A stretch of DNA of 64,000 bases from an uncultured Mycoplasmatota bacterium (GCA_946414095.1 CAMKNB010000003.1:2161-66160), one strand, 5' to 3'. Shown: positions 153 to 39,907, counted from the first letter of the stretch. Program-made: numbers and translations. The notes: generated by a model not told the origin, from the letters alone.

Positions 153-890
153 ATGGGAGATAAGAATAAAATTTTTGGTTATGTTTGTATGGGATGTGGA
201 CTATTAATATTATTAAGTGTCTTTTTACCTTATGTTTCAGCGTATGATATATCAAAAAGTATTTGGTCTTTAAAAAGTGCTACTAGAATAATATTTATAC
301 TTTGTGGGTTAGGAGTATTTGCATTGTACTTTTTTAACAAGAAAACTGAATTATCATATTTATTTGCTGGTCATATTTTATTATCAGTTTTAGAAAGTAT
401 TATAAATAATGAAGGGTTTGATTATTTTGCTATTGCGTTTTATTTATTATTTTTAGCTTCATGTGCAATTGTTGTTTGTACATTCCTTTATGATGAATCA
501 AAAGGAACATCACTATTAGATTTACTAACTAGTAAGTCAAATAATAATTACAATCAAAATATGGGATATAATTCAAACAACAATTACAATCAAAATATGA
601 ATTATAATTCAAATAATAACTTTAATCAAAATAATAATTTCAATCAAAATAATGGTTTTAACTCAAATAATAATTTTAACCAAAATAATGGTTATAATAC
701 AAACAACAACTTTAATCAAAATAATGGATTTAATACAAACAATAACTTTAATCCAAATAATAATTTTAACCAAGATAATAATTTTAATTCAAATAATAAT
801 TTTAATCAAATGAATCAATCAATGATGAATAATCAAAACTCTAATATGTTTATTCCAAATGATAATTCATCAAACAACAATTTTAACTAA
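153..890 (+). CDS. Membrane protein with Asn-rich low-complexity C-terminal tail
   Basis: 245-aa ORF. The N-terminal ~115 aa carry about four hydrophobic helices (FGYVCMGCGLLILLSVFLPYV, IIFILCGLGVFALYFF, LFAGHILLSVL, AFYLLFLASCAIVVCTFL). Residues ~130-245 are almost pure N/F/Q/Y/G repeats. Upstream are an extended -10 (TGtTATAAT, 122-130) and an AGGTG SD. Confidence 0.6.
   Translation: MGDKNKIFGYVCMGCGLLILLSVFLPYVSAYDISKSIWSLKSATRIIFILCGLGVFALYFFNKKTELSYLFAGHILLSVLESIINNEGFDYFAIAFYLLFLASCAIVVCTFLYDESKGTSLLDLLTSKSNNNYNQNMGYNSNNNYNQNMNYNSNNNFNQNNNFNQNNGFNSNNNFNQNNGYNTNNNFNQNNGFNTNNNFNPNNNFNQDNNFNSNNNFNQMNQSMMNNQNSNMFIPNDNSSNNNFN
540..887 (+). repeat. In-frame degenerate tandem repeat (18-nt / 6-aa unit NNNFNQ / NNGFNS) encoding an Asn-rich tail
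   Basis: Reading the translation directly gives NNNYNQNMGYNS NNNYNQNMNYNS NNNFNQNNNFNQNNGFNS NNNFNQNNGYNT and so on. The nucleotide units are aat-aat-aay-ttt-aay-caa variants. Confidence 0.8.
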
Positions 891-19388: not shown

Positions 19389-19411
19389 AAGAGATTGTAA
19401 TCTCTTTTTTT
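19387..19411 (+). terminator. Intrinsic terminator after gap
   Basis: Stem aaaagaga / tctctttt around the loop ttgtaa, then a T-run. Confidence 0.55.
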
Positions 19412-19439
19412 ATATATTAAAATTATAATAGGTGATAGT

Positions 19440-21386
19440 ATGAAAAATAAAAAGGGATTTACTCTTGTTGAATTACTAGCAGTAATAGCAATACTAGCAA
19501 TACTTGTAATTTTAGCGCTACCAAATATAATGGGAATGTTTAATAATGCTAAGAAGAGTTCATTTTTAACTGAAATTAAAAGAATATATCGAGGAGCAGA
19601 ACAAGAATATGTTAAAGATTCTTTTAATACTTCAGGATCAAAAGTTTATTCTAAATGTAAAAGTGGATGTACATCTATGTTAGATATGGATGTTAGGGAT
19701 GATTTAGAATATTATATTGAAATTAATAATAGTGGAAAAGTTGTTAAGTATTATGCAAAAGATAATTCATATCAATTTAAATATGAAGGTGAAATGACTA
19801 TAAACGATATTAAAGACGCAGTTTCAATAGCCGATTTACAAGGCCCACAACTATTAATAATCAATGATGGTGTTGAAACTATTTATCCGGAACCAGCAAG
19901 CAGTGATTATTATTTAATGGCTAGCTCTTCATCAAGTTCAGGTAATTTCTTAGGAACTAATATACAAAAGAATAAAATTGAAAAAATTACTTTTGTCACA
20001 TCAATTAGTGGCCATACTGCTAATGGAGTAGATTGCTTTGACCTTAGTAAAGGATCTAATGGTTCTGTTCTTGGATGGGCAACTGATATTGATAGCAATG
20101 GGCTATATGAACTTACTATTGGATCTAATGGACAAGTATATATTTCTAGTGGTCAATATTTATTTTATGGTTTAACTAACTTGACAAATATTGAAGGAAT
20201 GGAAAATTTAAATATCTCCAAAACTAATACACTATATATGATGTTTTATGATTGTTCTAAACTTACTAGTATTGATGTAAGTCATTTTGATACAAGGCAT
20301 ATAACTAACATGGGATATTTGTTTTCAGGATGTTCTAGCTTAACAAGTTTAGATTTAAGTAATTTTGATACATCAAATGTAACTAATATGACATATATGT
20401 TTCGAAACTTTACACTAGCAAATCTAAATATAAGCAGTTTTAATACATCTAAGGTAACTAACTTTATGGGTATGTTTTATAACTGTAAAGGATTAACAAG
20501 TTTAAACTTAAGTCATTTCGACACAAGTGCTGCAACAAATATGAAACAAATGTTTAGTGGTTGTAGTAATCTAACAAGTTTAAATATAAGTAGTTTTAAT
20601 ACATCAAATGTAACTGATATGTCTGCTATGTTTTATAATTGCTCTAGTTTAACAAGTTTAGATGTAAGTCATTTTAATACAAGCAAAGTAATTAATATGA
20701 GTGATATGTTTAGAAGTTGTTCAAAATTAACAAGTATAAATGTAAGTGGATTTGATACTAATAGAGTTACAGACATGCATAGAATGTTTGCTGACTGCTA
20801 TAGGGTTACAAGTTTAGATGTAAGTCATTTTAGCACAAGTAGAGTTACTGATATGAATTATATGTTTTATGATTGTGCTAATTTAACAAGTTTAGATTTA
20901 AGTAGTTTTGATACATCTAAAGTAACTGACATGTCTTTCATGTTTAGTAAATGTATTAAATTAACATCATTAAATCTAAATAGTTTCACTAATCCATTAG
21001 TAACAAATATAAACGATATGTTTAGTGATTGTACTCAATTAGCAAGTATAAGTTTTGGAAATTTTAATACATCAAATGTTATATACATGAATAATGTATT
21101 TGAAAATTGCAAAGCATTAACTTCTCTTAACTTAAGTAGTTTTAATACATCTAAAGTTCAATATACAAAGAGTATGTTTAATGATTGTAGTAATTTAAAA
21201 ACGATATATGTTAATGATACATTTAATATTTCTAGTTTATCTTCATCTAATTCAACATTAATGTTTTATGGAGATACAAAATTAGTTGGTGGATCTGGAA
21301 CTAGATATAGTAGTTCTAAAACTGATAAAACATATGCTAGGATTGATGAAGGTACTTCTAATCCTGGATATTTTACACAAGATTGA
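19440..21386 (+). CDS. Modular type IV pilin-like protein with C-terminal BspA-type leucine-rich-repeat (26-residue repeat) domain
   Basis: Class III signal MKNKKG|FTLVELLAVIAILAILVI, with Gly at -1, Phe at +1 and Glu at +5. A ~125-aa pilin-like module comes next, then about 14 repeats of the F.xC.xLTSLDLSxFDTSxVTxMxxMF type. The protein ends in the ARIDEGTSNPGYFT motif. Confidence 0.8.
   Translation: MKNKKGFTLVELLAVIAILAILVILALPNIMGMFNNAKKSSFLTEIKRIYRGAEQEYVKDSFNTSGSKVYSKCKSGCTSMLDMDVRDDLEYYIEINNSGKVVKYYAKDNSYQFKYEGEMTINDIKDAVSIADLQGPQLLIINDGVETIYPEPASSDYYLMASSSSSSGNFLGTNIQKNKIEKITFVTSISGHTANGVDCFDLSKGSNGSVLGWATDIDSNGLYELTIGSNGQVYISSGQYLFYGLTNLTNIEGMENLNISKTNTLYMMFYDCSKLTSIDVSHFDTRHITNMGYLFSGCSSLTSLDLSNFDTSNVTNMTYMFRNFTLANLNISSFNTSKVTNFMGMFYNCKGLTSLNLSHFDTSAATNMKQMFSGCSNLTSLNISSFNTSNVTDMSAMFYNCSSLTSLDVSHFNTSKVINMSDMFRSCSKLTSINVSGFDTNRVTDMHRMFADCYRVTSLDVSHFSTSRVTDMNYMFYDCANLTSLDLSSFDTSKVTDMSFMFSKCIKLTSLNLNSFTNPLVTNINDMFSDCTQLASISFGNFNTSNVIYMNNVFENCKALTSLNLSSFNTSKVQYTKSMFNDCSNLKTIYVNDTFNISSLSSSNSTLMFYGDTKLVGGSGTRYSSSKTDKTYARIDEGTSNPGYFTQD
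20157..21215 (+). repeat. About 14 tandem 75-78-nt coding repeats (LRR units) inside the first pilin-like gene
   Basis: The periodicity is read from the translation (CSKLTSIDVSHFDT / CSSLTSLDLSNFDT / CKGLTSLNLSHFDT and so on). Confidence 0.85.
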
Positions 21387-21459
21387 TTGTACTTTATTAA
21401 AAAAAGAAAAATTATTCATTTTTCTTTTTTTATATGCTATTATTATGATAGGTGATAGT

Positions 21460-22521
21460 ATGAAAAATAAAAAAGGTTTTACTCTTGTAGAATTACTAGC
21501 AGTAATAGCAATACTAGCAATACTTGTAATTTTAGCGCTACCAAATATAATGGGAATGTTTAATAATGCTAAGAAGAGTTCATTTATAACTGAAGCAAAA
21601 AGAATATTTAGAGGTGCTAGTGAGAATTATGTTAAGGATTCATTTAATTCATCTGGATCTAAAGTTTATTCAAAATGTAAAGAAGGATGCAATAATGAAC
21701 TTGATATGGATGTAAGGGATGACTTAGATTATTATATTGAAATAAATAGTAGTGGAAAAGTTGAAAAGTATTATTTAAGAGATAATTCATATCAATTTAT
21801 ATACGAAGGTGAAATGACTATAAATGATATTAATGATGCAGAAGTATTGGGAAATTTAGACAAATCTAATATTATAAATATTAGTGATGAAGGATTTTAT
21901 TTTGGAAAAGAGCCATCATGTAAAAACAAATTAGTAACAACTCGAGGTAGTTTTTCTGACGAACTTGATGTTAAGGAAATATGTTTTAATTTAGTTAATG
22001 ATGGTTATGTTTATCAGAATCAAGATACTGGTTGGTTTCAACAGTACAGTGACAGATACAAATATTTAGCAATAATTGTTCCATATGGTAATTTACAAGA
22101 AAATTCTTTTATAAGAGTTTATGAAGATTCAACTAAAAATAAATTATTAACAGAAATAACTTACAATGATAAAAAATTATCTAGAATAAATATAAATGAT
22201 ATGAATGATTACAATAGTGAAACTAGTGTAGTTAAAATAATAGGTGAATACTTAAAAGAAAATGTATATATTGAAAAATCAGAAGGATTAAGTTATAGTC
22301 TATCATATACATATGAAAATGCTGCATCTGCTAATAAGATTTATAGTGGTCCATGGATAACTGATGAATATGTTATTAACCAAATTAATACATTAAAAAG
22401 AAATTTATCAAAAATGAATTATTATGTTACTGGAATAAGCAAATGTAATATAGAGGAAGCTAATTGTTCACGCTACACATATCAAGTAGATTCGGTCTAT
22501 AAAGATTCTATTAAAAAATAA
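21460..22521 (+). CDS. Modular type IV pilin-like protein, unique C-terminal domain
   Basis: Same prepilin signal and ~125-aa N-terminal module as the gene at 19440. The ATG at 21460 follows AGGTGA. The track ORF from 21286 runs through the upstream terminator. I recognised no family for the ~225-aa C-terminal part. Confidence 0.75.
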   Translation: MKNKKGFTLVELLAVIAILAILVILALPNIMGMFNNAKKSSFITEAKRIFRGASENYVKDSFNSSGSKVYSKCKEGCNNELDMDVRDDLDYYIEINSSGKVEKYYLRDNSYQFIYEGEMTINDINDAEVLGNLDKSNIINISDEGFYFGKEPSCKNKLVTTRGSFSDELDVKEICFNLVNDGYVYQNQDTGWFQQYSDRYKYLAIIVPYGNLQENSFIRVYEDSTKNKLLTEITYNDKKLSRININDMNDYNSETSVVKIIGEYLKENVYIEKSEGLSYSLSYTYENAASANKIYSGPWITDEYVINQINTLKRNLSKMNYYVTGISKCNIEEANCSRYTYQVDSVYKDSIKK

Positions 22522-22541
22522 TAATTCAAGAGGAGAAATAT

Positions 22542-23807
22542 ATGAAAAATAAAAAAGGATTTACATTAGTAGAACTACTAGCAGTAATAGCGATACTAGC
22601 AATACTTGTAATAATAGCACTTCCAAATATAATGGGGATGTTTAATAGTGCAAAAGAAAGTACATTTATTACTGAACTTAAAAAAATATATAGAGGAGCA
22701 GAAGAAAAATATGTAAAAGATTCATTTAATAGTTCAGGAGCAAAGATATATTCAAAGTGTAGTGGATGTACAAATGAACTAGATATGCAAGTTAGAGATG
22801 ATCTTGAGTATTATATTGAGGTTAATAGTAGTGGAAAAATTGTCAAATACTATGCTCATGATAATTCATATCAATTTTCATATGATGGTGAAATGACTAT
22901 AAATGATATTGATAATATAAAAAATATATCAAACTTAAATGAGGACGAAAAAATAAAAATATCATCTTCTGGTGCAACCTCAATTGGTAAAGAAAAAATT
23001 GTTTGTAAAAGAGCAAAAACTCTGCATAGTGAAATTTGTACTAGTGGATTTTATTCTAGTGGAAGATATAATGGTTATTGTAAAGCTGCTGGATATACTA
23101 GCAATGGTTCTAAAGCGACAACTACAATTACTTATGGTAGTATAGGAACTAATGGAGTACTTAATCCTGGTGATGCGTTTGATTGTGATGTAAACAGCGA
23201 TGGTATATATAATCCTGAAACAGAGAGATTTTATTATGTTTCTCCAAAGGATGGAGATAATTCTAGTGATACTGTTGTATTGATATATTATGCTAATGTA
23301 GCAAATGGAATAGAGGATAATATAACAAAATATGCGTATGGAGATATTTTTTGTGATGGTCCAAATGTTGGATACTTACAATTACCAACAACTAGTCAAT
23401 GGAATAATAAATATTTAAAAAATAATTTTGAAAGACAAATTAAAACCATATCAGGTGGCACAATAATTGATCACGATAGTGGTATATATAATTTACCAAT
23501 TTTTGTATATAATAATAGGGCTGCAAGATTTTTGACTTACCAAGAATTTAGAAGCGGGTGTAATAATGGCAATATTACTACTAATGGAGATTTAGATAAA
23601 TGCATCTTTTTTATGGAAAACACATCATTTGCTAATAGTGAAAAGGCATCAGGATTTTGGCTTGAAAATTGGTCATCTAGTGTATATTATGTATATGGGA
23701 CAAATGGATTTGTTCGTCGCGTATCTTCTATTGATGTTCCAACTAATAGCAATACTGTAGGTATACGTCCAGCCATTGAACTAAAAAAGAATAATTTAGA
23801 ATACTAA
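22542..23807 (+). CDS. Modular type IV pilin-like protein, Cys-rich C-terminal domain ending in a GIRPAIEL module
   Basis: Same prepilin signal and N-terminal module, though more diverged at the nucleotide level. GAGGAG SD. The C-terminal ~290 aa differ from both neighbouring pilin-like genes. Confidence 0.75.
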   Translation: MKNKKGFTLVELLAVIAILAILVIIALPNIMGMFNSAKESTFITELKKIYRGAEEKYVKDSFNSSGAKIYSKCSGCTNELDMQVRDDLEYYIEVNSSGKIVKYYAHDNSYQFSYDGEMTINDIDNIKNISNLNEDEKIKISSSGATSIGKEKIVCKRAKTLHSEICTSGFYSSGRYNGYCKAAGYTSNGSKATTTITYGSIGTNGVLNPGDAFDCDVNSDGIYNPETERFYYVSPKDGDNSSDTVVLIYYANVANGIEDNITKYAYGDIFCDGPNVGYLQLPTTSQWNNKYLKNNFERQIKTISGGTIIDHDSGIYNLPIFVYNNRAARFLTYQEFRSGCNNGNITTNGDLDKCIFFMENTSFANSEKASGFWLENWSSSVYYVYGTNGFVRRVSSIDVPTNSNTVGIRPAIELKKNNLEY

Positions 23808-23900: not shown

Positions 23901-26828
23901 ATGAAGTTTAATATAAAGAAGTTTAAAAATAATAGTATGTTTTTTATAGTATCTGCATTAGTATTAGTAGTGTTATCATTACTAAGTTTTTTGATTGACA
24001 GAAGTAGTAATACTTATGAAAAGAAAGATTTAAATGACAAAGATATAAATATAAATAAACTTGTATTAAATGAAATAATGACATCTAATAAGGGTGTTAT
24101 AGCTGATGAAGATGGTAAACTCTATGATTATTTAGAAATATATAATGGAAATGATAAAGATATTAATTTAAATGGATATGGTCTTAGTGATGAAGACACT
24201 AAAGCTAAATTCGTATTTGGTGATATAACTATTAAAGCTAAATCATATTTAGTTGTGTATTTAAGTGGAACATCTAAAGGTGGTGTTCATGCTAATTTTA
24301 AATTAAAAAGTGGTGGAGGAGAAGTAGTAGCACTACTTAAACCTAATGGTAAAGCAGTTGATGCAATTGAAACTGTTGAACTATCTAGTAATAATGTTAT
24401 GGCTAGAGATGAAAATGGTTCATGGGTAATTATGGAAAAACCTACACCGGGATTCTCAAATAATATAAGTGGTTATAATGCGTTTTTAGATTCATTAAAG
24501 AGTGAAGAAAAGGGAAATTTACAAATAAATGAAATACTTGCAAGCAATAAAGGAAACTTTAAAAATCAATCTGGTGAATATAGTGGTTATATTGAAATTA
24601 AGAATATAAGTGATAAGAGTGTTAATCTTGATGGATATAGTTTATCAAATGATGAAAGTGTTAGTTTTAAATGGCAATTTCCTAATACTACATTAGGTAG
24701 CGGAGACGTTATTGTAGTATATACAAGTGGTGTTAGTAGTAAAGAAGGAGAACTTAGTACTTCGTTTAAACTAAAGAGTAAAAATGGTGATGTAGTTTTA
24801 AGTAATAAAGAAGGAAAAGTAATAGATAGAATCAAATATGAAAATCTTGGTAATGGAATTGCATTAATTAAACAAGGAGACAAATTATTAGAGAATAATT
24901 CTATTTCTCCTGGATATGATAATACTGTGGATGGAATTAAAAGTTTCCAAAAGAAGTATTTATCTAATCCTAAAGATTTAATGATTAATGAAGTTATGAA
25001 TTCTAATTATTCACATTTAGCACAAAATGGTGGTAATTATTATGATTGGATAGAACTATATAATAATAGTGGTAGTACGATAAAACTTAGTGATTATTGT
25101 TTAACTACTAATACAAATACTATATGTATGTATACTCTTCCAGATGTTGAACTTGGAAAGGGAGAATACTATGTGGTAATGGCTTCAGGTGATGAAAAAC
25201 TATCTAATAGTAAGTATAAACATACTAATTTTAAATTATCTGATACTGAAGGCATTTATTTAGTTAAATCTAAAACAATTGTTGATTCAATGTTAATGGC
25301 AAATATACCTACTGGTTACTCAATGGGAAGAGGGGACTCATACGGAATTTATTATTTCAGCAAACCAACTCCTAAAGAGAAAAATGGTAGTGGAACAGAG
25401 GCTGTGTCGTATTTACCAAGTGCTTCAGTTAAAAGTGGAGCATATAATGATAAAAAAAGTATAGAAGTATCCTTGAGCGGATACGGAAATATATACTATA
25501 CTACTGATGGTAGTAAACCAACAACTTCATCTAATATATACAGTAGTCCTCTTACTATTAAGAAGACTACTGTTTTAAGAATAATGAGTAAAGAGAGTGG
25601 AAAACTTAAAAGTGACACTGAGACTTATTCATATATTATGAATGAAAACCATAAATTGCCAATACTAAGCCTTGCTATTAATAGTAGTGATTTATACAAT
25701 GTAAATGTTCATACTGCTTTAAACAGTAGTGTAATAGAGCCAGTAAATGTTACTTTAATTGAAAAAGATGGCAGTGGTTTTAATATAAATGGTGGACTTA
25801 AACTATTTGGTGGATCTACTAGAAGCTATAGAAAGAAAAGCTATGAAATTAAATTTAAAAAGAAATATGGAGATGCGCATTTAAATTATAAATTATTTGA
25901 TACTGTTGATAGTTCAGTATTTGAATCAATTGTACTTAGAACTGGTTCTCAAGATGAATTTCAATATTCTAAGAGAGTTATAATAAGAGATATAGTTGCA
26001 ACGTCTTTAATGCATGATTTTACTAAGGTAGATGTTCAAGCATATAAACCAGTTGTTGTTTATATTAATGGTAAATATTGGGGATTATATTTTATCCGTG
26101 AAAAAGTTGATGAAAATTTTGTTGCTAATCATTATAATGTTAAAACAACAGAAAAAGATACTGATATTTTAAGAATTGATGGAGAAGTTAAAAGTGGTAG
26201 TAGTAAAGCATATAATTCTATGATGAGTTTTATCAATAATAATTCACTTGCTAATAAGAATAATTATGCTAAGATTAAGGAACAAATAGATATTGAAAAT
26301 TTATGTGATTTTTGGATAGCTGAGATATGGACGAACAATTATGATATTGTAAATACTAGATATTTTAGAAATCCTAATGTTGACAATGGTAAATGGAAGT
26401 TTGTTTTCTATGATTTGGATAGTGGATTTTATGTAGATTATGGAAGAGAAGGAAATTCGTTTAATTATTACACAAAAACATCTGGTATTGGATATGGTAA
26501 TTTTAGTACAGCATTGCTTAGAAATTTAATGAAGAGTAGTGAATTTAAGAAAACTTTTTTAGAAAGATTATCTTATAATCTTAATAATACATGGTCTACT
26601 AAAAATATTAGTAAAAAAATAGATGATGTAATAGCTGAAATAGGAAAAGATGAAATAAAGAGAAATTTAAGTAGATGGAATGTTTGTTCTTATAGTGAAT
26701 GGGAAAATCATGTTAAGGATTTGAAATCATTTTCTAAATCAAGAACTACATCTATCATTAAGGAAGCTAAGTCATATTTTAATTTATCTAGTAGTGATGT
26801 TAAGAAGTATTTTGGTGATGTGAAATGA
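23901..26828 (+). CDS. Membrane-anchored CotH kinase family protein with three lamin-tail-like domains
   Basis: N-terminal TM (MFFIVSALVLVVLSLLSFLI). Three LTD-like repeats (LNEIMTSNKG..YLEIYN, INEILASNKG..YIEIKN, INEVMNSNYS..WIELYN). A YYTTDGSKPTTSS chitobiase-C-like module. C-terminal CotH-like region (VLRTGSQDE..., VVYINGKYWGLYFIREKVDENF, FVFYDLDSGF). Confidence 0.75.
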   Translation: MKFNIKKFKNNSMFFIVSALVLVVLSLLSFLIDRSSNTYEKKDLNDKDININKLVLNEIMTSNKGVIADEDGKLYDYLEIYNGNDKDINLNGYGLSDEDTKAKFVFGDITIKAKSYLVVYLSGTSKGGVHANFKLKSGGGEVVALLKPNGKAVDAIETVELSSNNVMARDENGSWVIMEKPTPGFSNNISGYNAFLDSLKSEEKGNLQINEILASNKGNFKNQSGEYSGYIEIKNISDKSVNLDGYSLSNDESVSFKWQFPNTTLGSGDVIVVYTSGVSSKEGELSTSFKLKSKNGDVVLSNKEGKVIDRIKYENLGNGIALIKQGDKLLENNSISPGYDNTVDGIKSFQKKYLSNPKDLMINEVMNSNYSHLAQNGGNYYDWIELYNNSGSTIKLSDYCLTTNTNTICMYTLPDVELGKGEYYVVMASGDEKLSNSKYKHTNFKLSDTEGIYLVKSKTIVDSMLMANIPTGYSMGRGDSYGIYYFSKPTPKEKNGSGTEAVSYLPSASVKSGAYNDKKSIEVSLSGYGNIYYTTDGSKPTTSSNIYSSPLTIKKTTVLRIMSKESGKLKSDTETYSYIMNENHKLPILSLAINSSDLYNVNVHTALNSSVIEPVNVTLIEKDGSGFNINGGLKLFGGSTRSYRKKSYEIKFKKKYGDAHLNYKLFDTVDSSVFESIVLRTGSQDEFQYSKRVIIRDIVATSLMHDFTKVDVQAYKPVVVYINGKYWGLYFIREKVDENFVANHYNVKTTEKDTDILRIDGEVKSGSSKAYNSMMSFINNNSLANKNNYAKIKEQIDIENLCDFWIAEIWTNNYDIVNTRYFRNPNVDNGKWKFVFYDLDSGFYVDYGREGNSFNYYTKTSGIGYGNFSTALLRNLMKSSEFKKTFLERLSYNLNNTWSTKNISKKIDDVIAEIGKDEIKRNLSRWNVCSYSEWENHVKDLKSFSKSRTTSIIKEAKSYFNLSSSDVKKYFGDVK

Positions 26829-27511
26829 AAAAGTATAAATATAGACATGAATTAAAGTTTAAAATATCTAATTCTGCGGCTGAGGTATTAAAACAAAAAC
26901 TATCATTAATATTAGATAAAGATAATAATGCTTATTATGAAGATGGATCATATTTAATTAAAAGCTTATATTTTGATGATTTGAATTCTAATTCATATTA
27001 TGAAAAAATGGATGGAATATTATATAGGAAAAAATATAGAATTAGAATATATAATAATGATGATAGTTTCATAAGACTTGAGAAAAAAATGAAACATAAT
27101 AATATGACTGCTAAGGAACAAATGTTGATTTCAAAAGATATATATAGTAAAATATTAAATGGTAAAATAAATGATATTGATGATGCTGAAGGTTTGTTAC
27201 TTGAATTTTTAACAGATACTAAAGTACTTGGACTAATACCTTCAATAATAGTAGGTTATCATAGAACTGCATTTATTTATCCGATAAGTGATGTTAGAAT
27301 TACATTTGATTCTAATATTGAAAGTGGGCTTTATAATTATGATTTGTTTGATAATAAGATGCCTACATATAGAGTTGATGAACCTGGTAAACAGGTGTTA
27401 GAAGTAAAATTTAATGAAGTATTACCTTTACATATTGCATCAATATTAGCTGATATTCCTTCGTGTAGGGAAGCAGTTAGTAAATTTGCAATATGCAGAA
27501 GTATTAAATAA
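26825..27511 (+). CDS. VTC-domain (triphosphate tunnel, polyphosphate polymerase-like) protein
   Basis: 228 aa beginning KYRHELKFKIS (ExK tunnel signature), with further E/K/R strands (YRIRIYN, IRLEKKMK, VLEVKF). The start overlaps the CotH stop (ATGA). Confidence 0.6.
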   Translation: MKKYKYRHELKFKISNSAAEVLKQKLSLILDKDNNAYYEDGSYLIKSLYFDDLNSNSYYEKMDGILYRKKYRIRIYNNDDSFIRLEKKMKHNNMTAKEQMLISKDIYSKILNGKINDIDDAEGLLLEFLTDTKVLGLIPSIIVGYHRTAFIYPISDVRITFDSNIESGLYNYDLFDNKMPTYRVDEPGKQVLEVKFNEVLPLHIASILADIPSCREAVSKFAICRSIK

Positions 27512-27521
27512 GGAGTGAATT

Positions 27522-28208
27522 ATGAGTATAGTTGATACAATTAAAAAATCAGTTTTGGATAATTTTACAGGAACTGTTTCTGTAGGAAGTATGTTACTTT
27601 CATTATTAGTAGCATTCTTAGTTGGAATATTTATTATTTATGTTTATAGAAAGACATATACTGGAGTTGTTTACTCTAAAGCATTTGCATTATGTATATT
27701 AATGCTTTCTATGGTTACTGCGATGATAATTAGAACAATTAGTTCTAATATCAGTCTTTCTTTAGGTATGGTTGGTGCTTTATCTATCGTAAGATTTAGA
27801 ACAGCAGTTAAAGAACCTGTTGATACAGGATTTATGTTTTGGGGTATATCTGCAGGTATCATGGCAGGAGCTGGATTATATTTAATAGCTTTAATTGCTT
27901 CTTTGGGAATTGGTATTTTATATTTTGTAACATATTTAATGGGATTTAAAGTAGCTAATAGATATTTGCTTGTATTAAAGTATGATGCTTCTGCACATAA
28001 TGATGTTGTTAGAAAATTAAAAACTCTTAAGAAATTTAAAATTAGAAGTAAATCAATATTTGGTAGTCAAATTGAACTTTCTTTAGAAGTTGACTTAAGG
28101 GAAAATAGCAGAGGAAGTATTGATACAAGTATTGTTGATGGATTTAGTTCAATGGATGGAGTAGTTAATGCTAGTTTAATAGCATATCAAAATGATTTTG
28201 GAGATTAG
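27522..28208 (+). CDS. DUF4956-like polytopic membrane protein
   Basis: 228 aa with 4-5 TM helices, the conserved-looking GALSIVRFRTAVKEPVDTGF segment and a ~90-aa soluble C-terminal domain. It starts 10 nt after the VTC gene. Confidence 0.55.
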   Translation: MSIVDTIKKSVLDNFTGTVSVGSMLLSLLVAFLVGIFIIYVYRKTYTGVVYSKAFALCILMLSMVTAMIIRTISSNISLSLGMVGALSIVRFRTAVKEPVDTGFMFWGISAGIMAGAGLYLIALIASLGIGILYFVTYLMGFKVANRYLLVLKYDASAHNDVVRKLKTLKKFKIRSKSIFGSQIELSLEVDLRENSRGSIDTSIVDGFSSMDGVVNASLIAYQNDFGD

Positions 28209-28219
28209 GAGTATAATAT

Positions 28220-29602
28220 ATGGCCACAAGAAAAGTTCTTAAAATAACACCTGTTTTAGTAGCACTAAATATTTTAGTGTTACTTATTATTGTGGTTTTT
28301 TATACTGCAAGATTAATAAAGTATTATAAATTAGAAAATGGACATAAGAAAGAAGATACAACTATATTAGTAGATGAAATTAAAAAGCATCAGAGTATGC
28401 TTGATGAAACTAAAGGACTTGTGTTTGATGAAGAAACAAAAGTATATACATATAAGGGAAATGTAAGTGATAATTACTTAATGTACTCTGGTATGATGTT
28501 TAGAATAGTTTCTATTGATAAAAATGAAAATATTAAGTTAGTTAGTGAAGACAATGTTACTTTAATATATCCAGGATTTACTAATGGATATGAAAAATCA
28601 TATGTTAATAAATGGTTAAATAGTAGTGAAGAAAAATATAGCGGTATTTATGAGAATACTCTTGTAAATGCTGGAGGTGTCTTAGATAAAACTGAATATT
28701 GTGAAGATGTAATTGATGATTTATCTAAAATTGAATGTAATAATTCTACAGATAAATATAAAATAACATTATTATCATTATATGATTATAAAATTGCTGG
28801 TGGTAAAGCTAGTTATTTAAATAATGATACTTCTTTCAACTTAGGTTCATTAAATAGTATGAATGCTAATTATTATGTAACTGAAGATGGAGAAATAAGT
28901 TTAAATCAAAAATCTAGTAGAGCAATTAGTATTAGACCAGTTATTACTATAAATTCTGGTACTGAACTTGTAAGTGGTACTGGTAAAAAGAATGATCCAT
29001 ATATTATTGAAAAACATGATGTTGATACTTTAGGAGATACATATATAAATAGTATCGTTAAAATTGATGGTAATACATATAAAGTAATTGAAATAGGTGA
29101 AGATAAAGTTAAATTAGCAGGTACTAGTGTATTAAAAGATGGCGAAGATAATTTATTAATTGCTTTTTCTAATAAAATTAGTGCATATCAAGATAATACA
29201 ATTGTAGGGAAGTATTTAAATACTACTTTCTTAAATTCTTTAAGCGTTAAAGATAGTGTAGTATCAAGTGATTGGTATAATGGTACTTTAACTCTTGCTG
29301 ATTTAGATTATTCAAGTATTAGAAATTCTAAATCAACTGCTAAAGTGGGTATGCTTACTATTGGAGACATGTATATTAATGATGTTAGCAATGTGTTTAC
29401 TACTCTTAGGGGTGTTGAAGCAAGTAATATAATTAATGTTATTAATGAGAGTGGAAATTTATTTGCAGATCAAATTTCTTCTAAATATAATGTTAGAGCT
29501 GCATTTTATTTAAAATCTGACTTAGAAATAAAGAGTGGTTCTGGAACTATGGATAGTCCATATGAGTTAGGAGTAAATGATGAAAAAGAAAAAGAAGAGT
29601 AA
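28220..29602 (+). CDS. Membrane-anchored extracytoplasmic protein with two repeated modules
   Basis: 460 aa with an N-terminal TM (ITPVLVALNILVLLIIVVFY). Two modules each end in a ...(I/V)R(P/A)(V/A)... G(T/S)G...(D/S)PY(I/E)(I/L) pattern (SIRPVITINSGTELVSGTGKKNDPYIIE and VRAAFYLKSDLEIKSGSGTMDSPYEL). Confidence 0.5.
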   Translation: MATRKVLKITPVLVALNILVLLIIVVFYTARLIKYYKLENGHKKEDTTILVDEIKKHQSMLDETKGLVFDEETKVYTYKGNVSDNYLMYSGMMFRIVSIDKNENIKLVSEDNVTLIYPGFTNGYEKSYVNKWLNSSEEKYSGIYENTLVNAGGVLDKTEYCEDVIDDLSKIECNNSTDKYKITLLSLYDYKIAGGKASYLNNDTSFNLGSLNSMNANYYVTEDGEISLNQKSSRAISIRPVITINSGTELVSGTGKKNDPYIIEKHDVDTLGDTYINSIVKIDGNTYKVIEIGEDKVKLAGTSVLKDGEDNLLIAFSNKISAYQDNTIVGKYLNTTFLNSLSVKDSVVSSDWYNGTLTLADLDYSSIRNSKSTAKVGMLTIGDMYINDVSNVFTTLRGVEASNIINVINESGNLFADQISSKYNVRAAFYLKSDLEIKSGSGTMDSPYELGVNDEKEKEE

Positions 29603-33064: not shown

Positions 33065-33122
33065 TTCTTTTTTAATTAGCTAATAAATGATATAATATAG
33101 TTAATAATTGGAGGTTTTTTGT

Positions 33123-36100
33123 ATGAACGAAAAATTTAGAGTGTTTAAATATCTTTTAATATTAGTATTATTTTTATTCAATGTAAATTATGTTTTTTCA
33201 TTAGAGAAAGAAACAATTATTGAAGATAAGACTAAAGAAAAAACAATTAAAAATGATTTAGAAGGTGAATCTATTAATAGTGTTGAATCAACTAATGAAA
33301 CAAATTCAAGCGAAACAATACTTGTTTCTAGTATAGAAGTGGCAAGTGAAGTTGATGAAATATTTGATACTGAAACATTACAAATGAGTGCCACTGTTTA
33401 TCCTGATGATGCTACAAATAAAGATATTCTATGGTCTGTAGTAGATGGTACTGGAAGTGCAACTATTTCAGATAGTGGATTATTAACTCCAACTAAACCA
33501 GGTACTGTAACAGTAAGGGCAATAGCAACTGATGATAGTGGCTGTTATGGAAGTAAAATAATAACAATAAAACAAACATATGTTGAGAGTATTATTATTG
33601 CTGGAAACAACAGTGTACAAAGAACTAAGACAATACAATTTTCCACATCAATTAGTCCAACAAACGCATATAATAAAGGAATATCTTGGACAGTTACTAA
33701 TGGAACAGGAGAAGCTACAATTTCATCAAGTGGTGAACTAACAGCAATAAAAAATGGAACAGTAACAGTAAGGGCAACTGCAAAAGATAGAATGGAAGTT
33801 TATGATGAAAAAGAAATAACTATTACACCATTATTAGTCACTAATGTAAGTATAAGTGGAAGTGATAGATTAAATGTTGGTGATAAAGAATACTATGTTT
33901 CAACAATTACTCCAAGTGATGCAGATGATAAAACAATTACATGGAGTATTACAAGTGGAAGTGAATATGCCAGTGTAAATGAAAATGGATTATTAACAGC
34001 AATATCCGAAGGAACAATTACTTTAAAAGCAACAAGTAGCAATGGAAAAAGTGCACAAAAAACGATTACTATTGTTGGAGAAAATAAACCTACAAAAGTT
34101 ATTTTAACATCAGACAGTTACTTTCTTTCATACTCTTATAATAATACTCCAACTACTAAAATAAGAGCGAAATTGTATCCATCTAACGCAACGATAAAAT
34201 CTATTACATGGAGTACTAGTAACAGCAAGAGTCATATATATCCTGAAGATAATTTCGTAGCGTCTTTGAATTATACAACTTATGATGTATCAACAACAAC
34301 AGTAACTGCTACAGTTACAACAGAAACTGGTGAAACATTAACAGGAACTATAAAAATTAATCTTGGAAGTAGTTTATATGGCTATACTTATGAAGCACAT
34401 GTTAATTCATTGCAACCAACTGATTCTGAAAAAATATTAGAAATTGGTGATATAGGTAAGTTTAATGTTACTTATTCTCCTACTGATGCACCATCAAGTG
34501 ATATTATTTATAACATTTCAGATAGTAGTGTTGCACATATAGATGAAAATGGAAAAATATATGCTAAGGGGATTGGATATGCAACATTATATGCATATTC
34601 AAAATATAATAATAAAACTATAAGTATACCAATTAGTGTCGTTGAAGATAAAACTGAGCCACTTAAAGTTGTAAAAGTTGAAATAAATGGAAAAGATAAA
34701 GTTGAAAGAGGTACTACAGCACAATATAGTGTAAATATCTATCCTGTAAATGCAGCAAATAAAAATGTAACTTGGGAAGTAAAAAAACTTCAAGGTGATG
34801 CATCAGGAGAAGCAACAATAGATGAAAATGGATTATTAACTGCAATATCTGATGGACAAGTTATAGTAAAAGCAACTACTCAAGATGGAAGTAATATAAC
34901 AGTTTCAAAAGTTGTTACTATATCAAGAACTTATGTAGAGGGTATTACAATAAATGGCGAAGATACTGTTGAAAGAACAAAACAGTTACAACTAAGTACT
35001 ACTATTACTCCAAATAATGCATTTATTAAAAAAGTAAATTGGTCAGTTATTAATGGAACAGGAGAAGCAACAATAGATGAAAATGGAATTTTAACAGGAG
35101 TTAAAGAAGGAACTGTTACTGTTAGAGTAGAAAGTACTGATGAAAGTGGAGTATTTGCTGAAAAAGAAATAACAGTAACGCCTATATATGTAAAAGGAAT
35201 AAATATAGAAGGTGAATCATTTGTTGTTAAAGGTAAAAAGTATTATTTTGAATATAATATTATAAATGATGATGCTGATAACAATTCAATAGAGTGGATA
35301 GTTGAAAATGGAACAGGAGAAGCAACAATAGATGAAAACGGAGTATTTATACCTGTCTCTGTAGGTGAAGTTACTGTAAAAATTAAAGCTTTGGATAGTG
35401 GAAAAATATTTGACAGTATGAAAGTTACAATAAATAAGAGTGGAAGCTTAGAAAAAATAGCTATTATAGCTCCTAAGTATAATATATCAACAAATAGTAG
35501 TGTGAAACTAACTGCTATATTAATTCCATCAAATGTTGAAGAAAATTCTGTTGTATGGAGTGTGAATGATACAAATTATGCTACTATATCAACTGATGGG
35601 ACTTTAACTTCTAAAGGTATTACTGGAGTTGTTACAGTAAGAGCTACTGCTAAAGATGGAAGTGGAGTTTATGGAGAAATAAAACTATATATTTCTTCAG
35701 TTAATATAAATGTTGGAAAAAAATATACAGATGAAGTTTATGTTAATTATTTATCATCTGCTTATTTGACATCAACTAATTCAAATGTTGTATCTACTTC
35801 GTTAGGATGGTCATGGACGTCAAGTTCATATGGCACTCTTTATAGTTATAATGTAGAAATAACTGGTATTAGTGCTGGTAACGCAACAGTTTATTTAAGA
35901 AGTGGAAATGGAACTATACTAAAAGAATATTATGTAAGTGTTAGTGGTACTAATGGTGTTATGTTTAGTGATAAGTACTCATTAAATCTTGGATTAAATG
36001 AAACAGATAAAATTAATATATCATTTACTGGATCTAGTTATAAATATTATTTTGTTAGTTCTGATGAAAATGTTGTCAGTGTTGACTCAAGAGGTAATGT

Positions 36101-39151: not shown

Positions 39152-39907
39152 ATGAAAATTAAAGTATTGGCAGTAGATGATAATGCAGCACAAGTTAGTA
39201 TGATAAAGAAGTACTTTAATGGAAGTGAAAATATAGAGGTCATAGATACTGCTTCTAATGGTGAAGAAGCTATATCAAAAATAGAAAGTATAGATTTTGA
39301 TATTATGCTTCTAGATTTGATTATGCCTAAAAAAGATGGTATAAGTGTTCTTGAATATATGAAGGAAAATAATATTAGTAAAAATGTTATTGTTCTAACA
39401 TCTTTTAATGAAGAAGAAACAATTAGTAGTATTAGTGAGTATGGTGTTAAATATTATGCTTTAAAACCTTTTGAATTAAAAGGCCTTGAAAATATTATAA
39501 TTAAAATAATGAAATCTAAAAGAAGTAATAATGAATTAGTTGAAATACAAGATAAAGGAATACAAATACAAATTACAAGATTATTACATGAGCTTGGTAT
39601 TCCATCACATATAAAGGGTTATCAATATATTAGATCTGCTATATTAATGGTTTATGATAATCCTGGCTTTATTGGGGGTATAACTAAAGAATTATATCCA
39701 GATTTATCTATTAAATTTAATACTTCTATTCAAAGAGTTGAAAGAGCAATTAGACATGCGATTGAAGTATCTTGGTTAAGAGGAGATATTGACTTAATGG
39801 AAGAAATATTTGGACATAGTGTTGATATAGATAGAGCAAAACCAACTAATTCAGAATTTATTGTTACAATTGCAGATAAATTAAGACTTGATATGATTAA
39901 TGTATAA
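39152..39907 (+). CDS. spo0A: Sporulation-type response regulator Spo0A
   Basis: Receiver domain with VDDN, LLDLIMPKKDG, LTS and KPF. The C-terminal Spo0A effector domain is near-canonical: HELGIPSHIKGYQYIRSAI, QRVERAIRHAIEVSWLRG, KPTNSEFIVTIADKLRL. Confidence 0.9.
   Translation: MKIKVLAVDDNAAQVSMIKKYFNGSENIEVIDTASNGEEAISKIESIDFDIMLLDLIMPKKDGISVLEYMKENNISKNVIVLTSFNEEETISSISEYGVKYYALKPFELKGLENIIIKIMKSKRSNNELVEIQDKGIQIQITRLLHELGIPSHIKGYQYIRSAILMVYDNPGFIGGITKELYPDLSIKFNTSIQRVERAIRHAIEVSWLRGDIDLMEEIFGHSVDIDRAKPTNSEFIVTIADKLRLDMINV

What the first reader, a model, noticed from the sequence alone, without database searches (positions are those of the whole stretch)
19440..23807. Cassette of three tandem modular type IV pilin-like genes: one shared pilin module, three different C-terminal modules
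What the sequence shows: all three ORFs start MKNKKGFTLVELLAVIAILAILVI, a canonical class III prepilin signal with Gly-1, Phe+1 and Glu+5. They share a ~125-aa module (PNIMGMFN.AK.S.F.TE.K.I.RGA...YVKDSFN.SG.K.YSKC..GC...LDM.VRDDL.YYIE.N.SGK..KYY..DNSYQF.Y.GEMTINDI). After that they diverge completely. The first continues into a ~520-aa BspA-type LRR domain of about 14 repeats of 25-26 aa. The second continues into a ~225-aa unassigned domain. The third continues into a ~290-aa Cys-rich domain.

Established knowledge: pilins carrying grafted functional modules (modular pilins) have been described for the Streptococcus sanguinis type IV pilus, and BspA-like LRR proteins act as adhesins.

Inference: this looks like a set of interchangeable adhesin heads displayed on a pilus or pseudopilus, or proteins anchored by the uncleaved pilin helix. 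The window contains no prepilin peptidase, assembly ATPase or platform gene, so the machinery must be encoded elsewhere. A 650-aa LRR-bearing pilin would be unusually large.
Basis: partly seen in the sequence, partly recalled or inferred. Interest (0 to 1): 0.7.

Follow-up and report, generated by a model that had tools for sequence, protein, structure and literature searches.

The report
Tandem modular type IV pilin genes
Three neighbouring genes in an uncultured rumen bacterium attach one conserved pilus-subunit module to three unrelated surface "heads", and related strains carry different heads at the same spot; this is a new, variable example of the already described "modular pilin" way of displaying adhesins on type IV pili.

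Summary
Three co-oriented genes (19440-21386, 21460-22521, 22542-23807) each start with a canonical class III (prepilin) signal. They share a ~125-aa module (80-84% identity) and then diverge completely.

- A carries 12 clean (about 14 in all) 25-26-aa DUF285/PARCEL leucine-rich repeats.
- B carries a rare beta-rich head, with only 38 cluster representatives among 1.84 billion proteins.
- C carries a Cys-containing head from a large family of uncharacterised proteins in gut and rumen Bacilli.

AlphaFold2 models of B and C (pLDDT ~89) show a 53-residue alpha1 helix plus a four-stranded sheet, which is a pilin fold, followed by independent heads. Neither head has a PDB match.

The window has no pilus machinery, and its own genome was not retrievable. 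Its closest relatives encode PilC plus a prepilin peptidase flanked by the same kind of gene, and a GspE/PilB-type ATPase paired with a small pilin.

Near-identical strains carry A-B-C, A-B-B'-D or B-C at this locus, with breakpoints inside the shared module.

Modular pilins, including pilin-DUF285 and pilin-BspA-LRR architectures, were catalogued in 2021 (PMC8179133). These are therefore new members of a known kind. The noteworthy parts are the shared-carrier cassette organisation and the strain-level head exchange. Function and pilus display remain inferred.

The parts
19403..19439 (+). Conserved upstream leader of gene A. It includes the AGGTGA ribosome-binding site. The same ~37 nt precede gene B at 21423-21459.
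   Evidence: DNA alignment; direct-repeat family D2 starts at 19403 / 21423.
19440..21386 (+). Gene A, 648 aa: class III signal + pilin module + DUF285/PARCEL leucine-rich-repeat head.
   Evidence: An identical protein is present in strain locus L001.
19440..19814 (+). A pilin module (aa 1-125). Leader MKNKKG, then mature Phe+1, Glu+5 and Pro+22.
   Evidence: PF07963 / TIGR02532. A profile of 26 such modules hits solved pilins at E down to 3e-13.
20262..21194 (+). Twelve clean 25-26-aa DUF285/PARCEL LRR units of A (aa 275-585). Degenerate units flank them on both sides.
21460..22521 (+). Gene B, 353 aa: pilin module + rare beta-rich head.
21460..21834 (+). B pilin module (aa 1-125). Its first 40 codons are 97.5% nt-identical to A, against 80.8% for the rest of the module.
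   Evidence: The AF2 model has a helix at 9-61 and strands at 68-119.
21874..22518 (+). B head (aa ~139-353). Beta-rich fold with conserved GSFS and GPWI motifs. No PDB fold match.
   Evidence: Only 38 representatives among 1.84 billion proteins; alignment; AF2 pLDDT 89.6; Foldseek found no hit at E<=1e-3.
22542..23807 (+). Gene C, 421 aa: pilin module + Cys-containing head.
22542..22913 (+). C pilin module (aa 1-124). It is a mosaic: codons 1-40 are closest to gene B' of strain L001 (92.5% nt), and the rest is closest to gene D of L001 (92.5% nt).
   Evidence: The AF2 model has a helix at 9-61 and strands at 68-115.
23004..23804 (+). C head (aa 155-421). Cys155, His162, Cys166 and Cys215 are invariant and Cys180 is nearly invariant. 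It has a conserved GDAFDCDVNxDG loop and a C-terminal GxRPAIE motif, and is distantly DUF6273-like.
   Evidence: Full-length homologues fill most of the 120 listed hits in uncultured Bacilli; invariant columns; 16 of 65 homologues hit PF19789 weakly; no Foldseek hit in PDB or BFVD.

Best explanation
A, B and C are modular type IV pilins of an uncultured, low-GC (about 25%), peptidoglycan-containing, Spo0A-encoding rumen Bacillota (Erysipelotrichaceae-like). Each is built from a carrier and a cargo. The carrier is a class III signal plus a ~125-150-aa pilin module, nearly the same in all three. The cargo is a different C-terminal head.

The proposed mechanism, all inferred:
- The proteins are inserted into the membrane by Sec.
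- A PilD-type prepilin peptidase cleaves the six-residue leader after Gly6.
- The alpha1 helix is then fed by a PilC platform and a GspE/PilB-type ATPase, encoded elsewhere in the genome, into a type IV filament built mainly of a small major pilin.
- The bulky heads are thereby presented beyond the cell wall, most plausibly at the filament tip. The tip position follows the argument made for Streptococcus sanguinis PilB.
- The heads presumably bind ligands such as plant-fibre polysaccharides, other microbes or host glycans. The DUF285 LRR solenoid and the two beta-rich heads point that way.

Because the carrier module is repeated head to tail, it acts as a homology handle. Unequal crossing-over, gene conversion and allelic replacement add, delete and swap heads. 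Strains of one species therefore differ in which heads they display.

What is shown directly: the architecture, the predicted fold, strain polymorphism with breakpoints in the module, and machinery in relatives.
For: **Signal.** The class III signal is canonical, with Gly-1, Phe+1, Glu+5 and Pro+22. Glu+5 and Pro+22 are invariant in 65 homologues of C and in 26 modules.

**Fold.** The AF2 models of C (pLDDT 88.9) and B (89.6) both have a helix at 9-61 followed by four beta-strands, then a hairpin linker and an independent head. The module profile hits solved pilins. T. thermophilus PilA4 (6xxd) is aligned over the whole pilin, positions 7-114.

**Machinery near relatives.**
- In the closest genome found (RUG10929, L007; module 73% identical), PilC (528 aa) and a PilD with the CxxC...CxxC and GDGDIK motifs lie between two pilin-DUF285 genes.
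- A 42%-identical full-length homologue of C lies 9.7 kb from PilC-PilD on one 200-kb contig.
- The lepA-pilC-pilD-ykuD synteny is conserved.
- A GspE/PilB-type ATPase, divergently paired with a 121-190-aa pilin, occurs in 73 rumen or gut contigs. It is adjacent to PilC-PilD in 7 of them and within 2-8 kb of pilins with the same module in 4.

**Interchangeable heads.** Strain loci with 95-99.9% identical flanks carry A-B-C (the window), A-B-B'-D (L001-L003) or B-C (L088, L089).

**Mosaic modules.** A and B codons 1-40 are 97.5% nt-identical against 80.8% afterwards. The module of C is B'-like at the 5' end and D-like at the 3' end.

**Family context.** In 78 loci from related MAGs there were 144 class III ORFs, and 64 of them were >=250 aa (up to 931 aa). 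Their heads include DUF285, LRR_5, Glug, Gly_rich_2, Flg_new and FGE-like domains, or none known.

**Precedent.** Modular pilins are an established concept (PMC8179133).
Against: - The window's own genome is not in the searchable genome collection, so PilD, PilC and PilB are shown only for relatives.
- No PilM homologue was found near the machinery; PilN and PilO were not searched for. The machinery genes are dispersed, so what kind of filament is made is unknown.
- Foldseek did not match the models to solved pilins. The fold call therefore rests on secondary-structure order and on sequence-profile matches.
- One MAG has at least 16 such genes. That is many for classical tip-located minor pilins.
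- No ligand, cleavage, methylation or piliation data exist.
- The B-C allele that lacks A has its junction inside a ~95-nt stretch identical in A and B. It could be an assembly collapse.
Confidence: 0.65

Rival explanations
1. Pilin-handle anchoring without polymerisation. The class III signal and pilin module serve only as a PilD-processed (or even uncleaved) membrane anchor or export handle for many surface proteins. This would be comparable to the class III-signal sugar-binding proteins of the archaeal bindosome. No true pilus would carry the heads.
For: - There are very many paralogues per genome: at least 16 class III ORFs in 11 loci of one MAG.
- The heads are very large, with proteins up to 931 aa.
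- The genes are scattered among housekeeping loci, far from the machinery.
- No PilM homologue was detected; PilN and PilO were not searched for.
- PilC-PilD sits in a housekeeping locus without an ATPase.
Against: - The whole ~125-aa pilin globular domain is conserved in every paralogue, not just the helix. Glu+5 and Pro+22 are invariant too.
- The organism has a cell wall. PcsB-like M23 peptidases and FtsEX are in the window, and YkuD is in relatives. A 125-aa stalk on the membrane would hardly expose the heads.
- A GspE/PilB-type assembly ATPase with a paired small pilin exists in the lineage, next to PilC-PilD in some contigs.
Confidence: 0.2
2. The three proteins are minor pilins of a competence (Com) pseudopilus or of a type II-secretion-like pseudopilus, involved in DNA uptake or secretion rather than adhesion.
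For: NCBIfam gives weak N-terminal hits to ComGC, ComGD, ComGE and GspG. The lineage's machinery looks minimal: ATPase, platform and peptidase.
Against: - Those hits cover only residues 1-60 and fall well below the curated cutoffs, for example ComGE 34 bits against 49 and GspG 26 bits against 89.
- There is no comG-like operon context.
- The lineage's ATPase and platform score higher on GspE/PilB and GspF/PilC models than on ComGA/ComGB.
- LRR and beta-sandwich heads are typical of ligand-binding surface proteins.
Confidence: 0.05
3. The apparent strain-to-strain head exchange is an artefact of short-read metagenome assembly across the repeated module, and the real locus is invariant.
For: - The junction of the allele lacking A lies in a ~95-nt stretch identical in A and B.
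- One of the two contigs (L089) has a 10-N scaffold gap just upstream.
- All the comparison loci are short-read metagenome contigs.
Against: - The A-B-C and A-B-B'-D alleles differ by sequences with no long exact repeat. The module of C is only 88.6-92.6% nt-identical to the module of D, while the downstream flank is 99.8% identical.
- Each arrangement is seen in two or more independent samples: L001, L002 and L003; the window and L089; L088 and L089.
- L088 has no Ns.
Confidence: 0.1

Closest known systems
Modular type IV pilins PilB (vWA head) and PilC (lectin head) of Streptococcus sanguinis, and the catalogue of modular pilins in Raynaud et al. 2021 (PMC8179133)
   Same: - A class III signal and a small pilin module are joined by a short linker to a bulky C-terminal functional module.
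- The host is a monoderm.
- The proposed role is ligand binding at the pilus tip.
- The catalogue already lists IPR012902-IPR005046 (pilin-DUF285; 9 proteins plus multi-copy versions) and IPR012902-IPR026906 (pilin-BspA LRR; 18 proteins).
   Different: - Here three (elsewhere four) genes in tandem share one nearly identical carrier module, whereas S. sanguinis has distinct pilins inside a pil operon.
- The genes lie in a housekeeping locus far from any machinery.
- The heads of B and C have no domain signature and no solved-structure match.
- Heads differ between near-identical strains.
- The family is expanded to a dozen or more copies per genome in relatives.
- Nothing here has been tested experimentally.
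DUF285 / PARCEL-repeat (TIGR02167) and BspA-type LRR surface proteins of Mycoplasma, Listeria and oral or gut anaerobes
   Same: The head of A is a bona fide member by score: PF03382 at 241.6 bits against a cutoff of 25, and TIGR02167 at 378.8 bits against 30. These are surface-exposed repeat solenoids.
   Different: Those proteins are usually anchored as lipoproteins or by other signals. Here the anchor and display device is a type IV pilin module.
Pilin antigenic variation by recombination between pilE and silent pilS cassettes in Neisseria
   Same: Repeated pilin-gene segments act as substrates for homologous recombination that changes what the pilus exposes. (The Neisseria system is cited from general knowledge.)
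   Different: - All copies here are complete, apparently expressible genes.
- Whole unrelated domains are exchanged, not hypervariable loops.
- No evidence exists for a programmed, high-frequency mechanism. No inverted repeats or recombinase lie nearby.
- The variation is seen between strains, not within a clone.
Class III-signal surface proteins of the archaeal bindosome (Sulfolobus sugar-binding proteins; Bas system)
   Same: Many functionally diverse extracellular proteins share a pilin-type signal and depend on a prepilin peptidase and a small dedicated assembly system.
   Different: - The host is bacterial.
- A full pilin globular domain is retained.
- The lineage's ATPase scores only 33-40 bits on the BasE model, against a cutoff of 1000.
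- This is an analogy only.

Membership tests
Type IV pilin (subunit of a type IV filament) | Class III signal peptide: short basic leader ending in Gly-1, then about 21 hydrophobic residues with Glu+5 | tested here: met
   MKNKKG|FTLVELLAVIAILAILVI in all three proteins. PF07963 scores 33-35 bits against a cutoff of 21.2; TIGR02532 scores 28-29.5 bits against 16.3.
Type IV pilin (subunit of a type IV filament) | Lollipop fold: an alpha1 helix of about 53 residues packed on an antiparallel beta-sheet | tested here: met
   Both AF2 models, C (pLDDT 88.9) and B (89.6), have a helix at 9-61 followed by four strands. The module profile aligns to T. thermophilus PilA4 (6xxd) over positions 7-114 at E 3e-9. 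This is prediction only, and Foldseek gave no pilin match.
Type IV pilin (subunit of a type IV filament) | A dedicated A24 prepilin peptidase encoded in the same genome | not testable with these tools
   The window has none, and its genome is absent from the genome collection. The feature is present in relatives, adjacent to such genes (L007) or on the same contig as them (L004/L085).
Type IV pilin (subunit of a type IV filament) | A PilC/GspF platform and a PilB/GspE assembly ATPase encoded in the same genome | not testable with these tools
   The window has none. At lineage level, PilC lies next to PilD. A GspE/PilB-type ATPase lies next to PilC-PilD or near same-module pilins in rumen and gut contigs.
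Type IV pilin (subunit of a type IV filament) | Leader cleavage, N-methylation and incorporation into filaments | not testable with these tools
   Requires experiments.
Modular pilin (sensu Raynaud et al. 2021) | An N-terminal pilin module linked to an additional, structurally independent C-terminal module | tested here: met
   Alignment A1. The AF2 models show a low-pLDDT linker or hairpin and then a separate head. The head of A is DUF285. The head of B also occurs behind non-pilin N-termini.
Modular pilin (sensu Raynaud et al. 2021) | The extra module mediates a filament-dependent function such as adhesion | not testable with these tools
   Only inferred, from the LRR and beta-rich nature of the heads.
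Competence pseudopilus pilins ComGC-ComGG | Score above the equivalog cutoff, plus a comG operon context | tested here: not met
   The best hit is ComGE at 34 bits against a cutoff of 49. All such hits cover only residues 1-60. No comGA or comGB lies nearby.
DUF285 / PARCEL-repeat LRR surface protein (head of A) | Tandem 25-26-aa repeats matching PF03382 / TIGR02167 above cutoff | tested here: met
   PF03382 at 241.6 bits (cutoff 25); TIGR02167 at 378.8 bits (cutoff 30) in 11 stretches; 12 clean units.
DUF6273 (head of C) | A match to PF19789 | tested here: inconclusive
   The window protein does not match at E<=0.01. Sixteen of 65 full-length homologues match weakly, with a best E of 8.8e-5.

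The most novel reading that the evidence does not exclude
In this clade of uncultured rumen and gut Bacilli, the type IV pilin module may have become a general-purpose surface-display handle that is also competent for recombination. A dozen or more paralogous genes per genome would put unrelated adhesive or enzymatic heads on one conserved carrier. A minimal, dispersed PilB/PilC/PilD machinery would assemble them together with a small major pilin. The repeated carrier sequence would drive frequent gain, loss and exchange of whole heads between paralogues and strains. That would amount to a domain-level analogue of pilin antigenic variation, tuning attachment specificity in the gut.
Probability: 0.3. 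Interest if true: 0.7.

Novelty: new member of a known kind. Interest (0 to 1): 0.5.

Why it matters
If these proteins are displayed on type IV filaments, an abundant but uncultured group of rumen and gut Bacilli uses pili as an exchangeable adhesin rack. Strain-specific heads would set what each strain sticks to, whether plant fibre, mucus or other microbes.

The locus provides a natural experiment in modular-pilin evolution: the same carrier with different cargo in near-identical strains. It also offers two well-predicted head folds with no solved relatives as targets for structure and ligand work.

It extends the modular-pilin concept, so far studied experimentally in Streptococcus sanguinis, to multi-gene families. 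It does not reveal a new kind of machine.

Tried and rejected
- **Locating the window's own genome.**
  - The exact-sequence contig look-up of protein C failed.
  - The cluster look-up returned no names or accessions.
  - The genome-contig scan returned a best match of only 73% identity. Machinery could therefore be assessed only in relatives.
- **Fold searches.** Foldseek of the C model against PDB and BFVD and of the B model against PDB gave no hit at E<=1e-3. The heads remain without a fold assignment. The weak beta-sandwich / jelly-roll hits for B (E >= 0.02) were not used.
- **Word-indexed homology search with B's head.** It found only B's own cluster. The exhaustive HMMER search was needed to find 38 distant relatives.
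- **Neighbouring ORF 28220-29602.** I suspected it shared C's head because of an 'IRPVI' motif. BLASTP shows no similarity.
- **Promoter and terminator scan.** It was uninformative in this AT-rich DNA: 52 promoter-like sites against 47.6 expected, and no terminators.
- **Shufflon or invertase-type switching.** No meaningful inverted repeats were found, and no recombinase gene lies nearby.
- **A Tad-type system as the partner.** A CpaF/TadB/TadC-like cluster lies upstream of one modular pilin in L008. The signal here is GFTLVE (T4a/T2SS-like), not Flp-like, and this adjacency was seen only once.
- **PilM next to the lineage's ATPase/PilC/PilD.** A search with Faecalibacillus PilM as the query found none.

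Full report
**1. Observation**

The three ORFs are real and co-oriented: A at 19440-21386 (648 aa), B at 21460-22521 (353 aa) and C at 22542-23807 (421 aa). The mechanical ORF list extends B to a TTG at 21286, but homology and the ribosome-binding site begin at ATG 21460.

All three start MKNKKGFTLVELLAVIAILAILVI. They match PF07963 and TIGR02532 above cutoff. A six-frame scan finds this signal nowhere else in the 64 kb.

Residues 1-125 are 80-84% identical between the three, and beyond about residue 150 they are unrelated. At the DNA level the shared unit is about 410 nt: 19403-19811, 21423-21831 and 22505-22910. For A and B it includes about 37 nt of upstream leader.

The head of A is a DUF285/PARCEL leucine-rich-repeat array. 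PF03382 gives E 1.3e-72 and TIGR02167 gives E 1.6e-116. There are 12 clean 25-26-aa units at aa 275-585 plus degenerate flanking units, and a 78-nt DNA period. The heads of B and C have no Pfam or NCBIfam assignment.

**2. Context**

The window is chromosomal DNA of a low-GC (about 25%) Bacillota. Upstream lie RF2, FtsEX, two PcsB-like M23 peptidases, WhiA and GAPDH. Downstream lie a CotH/LTD protein, VTC, DUF4956, NAGPA, PGK, TPI, a 1976-aa Big_2 surface protein, Spo0A, the ribosomal-protein operon and an rRNA operon.

tblastn with PilD, PilC, PilB and PilM queries finds nothing in the window.

**3. Are they pilins?**

AlphaFold2 models were built with alignments. Both C (pLDDT 88.9) and B (pLDDT 89.6) show a continuous helix at 9-61 followed by four beta-strands. 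Then come a short hairpin or linker and an independent beta-rich head.

Glu+5 and Pro+22 are invariant in 65 full-length homologues of C and in 26 diverse modules. A profile of those modules hits solved pilins at E down to 3e-13. T. thermophilus PilA4 (6xxd) is aligned across the whole pilin, positions 7-114.

Foldseek did not recover pilins, or anything else, for either model. The fold assignment therefore rests on secondary-structure topology and sequence profiles.

**4. Relatives**

C belongs to a large family: the word-indexed search scored 4016 proteins at E<=1e-3. Most of the 120 listed hits are full-length homologues of ~390-450 aa at 35-56% identity. The few that carry a name are called 'type II secretion system protein' from Bacilli MAGs or uncharacterized proteins of Clostridium sp. 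CAG:433. Sixteen of 65 homologues weakly match DUF6273.

B's head is rare. The word-indexed search found only its own cluster. An exhaustive HMMER search of 1.84 billion representatives found 38 relatives. In those proteins the head sits either behind the same pilin module or behind a Sec signal, an extra domain and an NPxTG-like/TM segment. It is therefore a mobile, independent module.

A scan of GTDB representative genomes with the module found 377 relatives. All the best ones are in uncultured rumen and gut MAGs labelled Bacilli, Erysipelotrichaceae, Mollicutes or Tenericutes. The window's own genome is not there; the best match is 73% (RUG10929).

In the 78 fetched loci I counted 144 class III ORFs. 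Sixty-four are >=250 aa, up to 931 aa, and most start with the same MKNKKGFTLVELLAVIAILAIL sequence. One rabbit-gut MAG has 11 loci with at least 16 such genes. Among the 20 longest, the heads include:
- DUF285 in 8
- LRR_5 in 1
- Glug in 2
- Gly_rich_2 in 1
- Flg_new plus a glycine-rich domain in 1
- an FGE-sulfatase-like domain in 1
- nothing known in 6

A 648-aa pilin is therefore ordinary in this clade.

**5. Machinery in the lineage**

In RUG10929 (L007), a 528-aa PilC and a prepilin peptidase lie between two pilin-DUF285 genes whose module is 73% identical to the window's. The peptidase has the CxxC...CxxC and GDGDIK motifs.

A 42%-identical full-length homologue of C lies 9.7 kb from PilC-PilD on a 200-kb contig.

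The synteny SpoIVA, small pilin, UvrA, MscS, LepA, PilC, PilD, YkuD recurs in relatives, without an ATPase within 10 kb.

A 449-aa GspE/PilB-type ATPase sits next to a small pilin and 3 kb from a 723-aa same-module pilin in MAG RUG840. Scanning metagenomes with it gave 73 rumen and human-gut loci. In these:
- the ATPase is almost always divergently paired with a 121-190-aa pilin, a candidate major pilin;
- in seven loci it is adjacent to PilC-PilD of the L007 family;
- in four loci it is within 2-8 kb of same-module modular pilins.

No PilM homologue was found (PilN and PilO were not searched for). By contrast, the cultured Faecalibacillus intestinalis has a full clostridial-type T4P operon.

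The clade thus has a minimal, dispersed ATPase/platform/peptidase set. Whether the window's organism has it could not be tested.

**6. Strain polymorphism**

Contigs from independent rumen metagenomes carry the same locus with 95-99.9% identical flanks but different cassettes.
- L001, L002 and L003 have A (identical protein), B, B' (360 aa, a diverged paralogue of B's head) and D (518 aa: the module closest to C's, but with a DUF285 head).
- L088 and L089 go from GAPDH directly into a hybrid module, A-like at the 5' end and B-like at the 3' end, and then B and C.

The replaced segment in the window-versus-L001 comparison is bounded on the left by the module and on the right by the stop codon, after which identity returns to 99.8%.

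Codon-level comparison shows mosaicism. A and B are 97.5% nt-identical in codons 1-40 and 80.8% afterwards. The module of C resembles B' in codons 1-40 (92.5%) and D in codons 41-126 (92.5%).

The A-B-C versus A-B-B'-D difference cannot be an assembly artefact, because there is no long exact repeat and the modules have diverged. The allele lacking A has its junction in a ~95-nt exact repeat, so it could be one. No inverted repeats or recombinase genes suggest programmed switching.

**7. Interpretation**

The best-supported reading is that A, B and C are modular type IV pilins. A conserved carrier, processed by PilD and assembled by PilB/PilC encoded elsewhere, presents different ligand-binding heads on a type IV filament, probably at its tip. 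The repeated carrier serves as the homology substrate for gain, loss and exchange of heads (confidence 0.65).

The main rival is use of the pilin module as a mere anchor or export handle without polymerisation (0.2). The sheer number of paralogues favours it. Conservation of the entire pilin domain, the presence of a cell wall and the presence of an assembly ATPase disfavour it.

A Com or T2SS pseudopilus role is unlikely (0.05). An all-artefact explanation for the polymorphism is unlikely (0.1).

**8. Comparison with what is known**

Modular pilins were defined and catalogued by Raynaud et al. 2021 (PMC8179133). They found more than 1,200 proteins in 264 architectures and proposed a tip location.

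Their Dataset S1 already lists IPR012902-IPR005046 (pilin-DUF285) and IPR012902-IPR026906 (pilin-BspA LRR). The architecture of A is therefore already catalogued. The architectures of B and C are invisible to domain databases.

What is new here:
- the tandem shared-carrier organisation;
- the strain-level head exchange with breakpoints in the carrier;
- the clade-wide expansion;
- two confidently predicted head folds with no solved relatives.

I rate it a new member of a known kind, with interest 0.5. The more ambitious reading is a clade-wide, recombination-driven pilin-handle display system. I give it a probability of about 0.3, and it would merit about 0.7 if true.

Noticed in passing
window 23901-28208: Directly downstream of the pilin cassette is a conserved cluster. 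It comprises a 975-aa protein with three lamin-tail domains, CHB_HEX_C/Fn3_assoc and a CotH kinase domain, then a VTC-domain protein and a DUF4956 membrane protein. The same order is found in strain locus L001. Its function is unknown, and it is not linked to pilin genes in other genomes.
   Followed up: partly
P0133, P0136, P0149, P0153, P0155-P0157, P0160, P0162 (alignment A4): Homologues of B's head also occur in proteins with an odd architecture. They have a Sec signal, a ~100-aa domain, then an internal NPxTG-like motif followed by a hydrophobic segment and basic residues (sortase-signal-like, but mid-protein), and then the head.
   Followed up: no
L008 2823-9821: In the rabbit-gut MAG Lapin-027__bin88, a Tad-like cluster lies immediately upstream of a 756-aa same-module pilin. 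It has two CpaB-like proteins, a 421-aa CpaF/TadA-like ATPase and TadB/TadC-like membrane proteins. Assignments are by eye plus a weak tblastn hit.
   Followed up: partly
L007 16731-18423: The second pilin-DUF285 gene next to PilD in RUG10929 is split into two overlapping ORFs (113 aa and 455 aa). This is either a frameshift or pseudogene, or an assembly error in the repeated module.
   Followed up: no
L090-L162 (e.g. L091 9884 / 10001): The GspE/PilB-type ATPase of this clade is almost invariably divergently paired with a small (121-190 aa) pilin gene about 115 nt away. This is a conserved two-gene unit, separate from PilC-PilD.
   Followed up: partly
window 33108-39038: A 1976-aa predicted surface protein has at least 10 Big_2 domains and, by eye, fibronectin-type-III-like C-terminal repeats. 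It has no LPXTG motif at its end.
   Followed up: partly
window 153-890 and 41542-43857: Two low-complexity proteins without family hits. One is a 245-aa membrane protein with an Asn-rich NNNFNQ repeat tail. The other is a 771-aa protein with a long Thr/Pro/Val-rich N-terminus and one transmembrane segment.
   Followed up: no
window 39152-39907; L086 1-1108: Spo0A is present in the window (Spo0A_C E 1e-37), and SpoIVA is present in a relative's locus. This uncultured low-GC lineage may therefore be a spore-former.
   Followed up: partly
L086 7163-7807, L085 3885-4526, L007 11448-12104: A conserved ~215-aa protein lies upstream of lepA-pilC-pilD. Its N-terminus resembles a SipW-dependent (TasA/camelysin-type) signal (…SYSYFxVIxxGKxNxIxVGDLxxSF). 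The assignment is by eye only.
   Followed up: no
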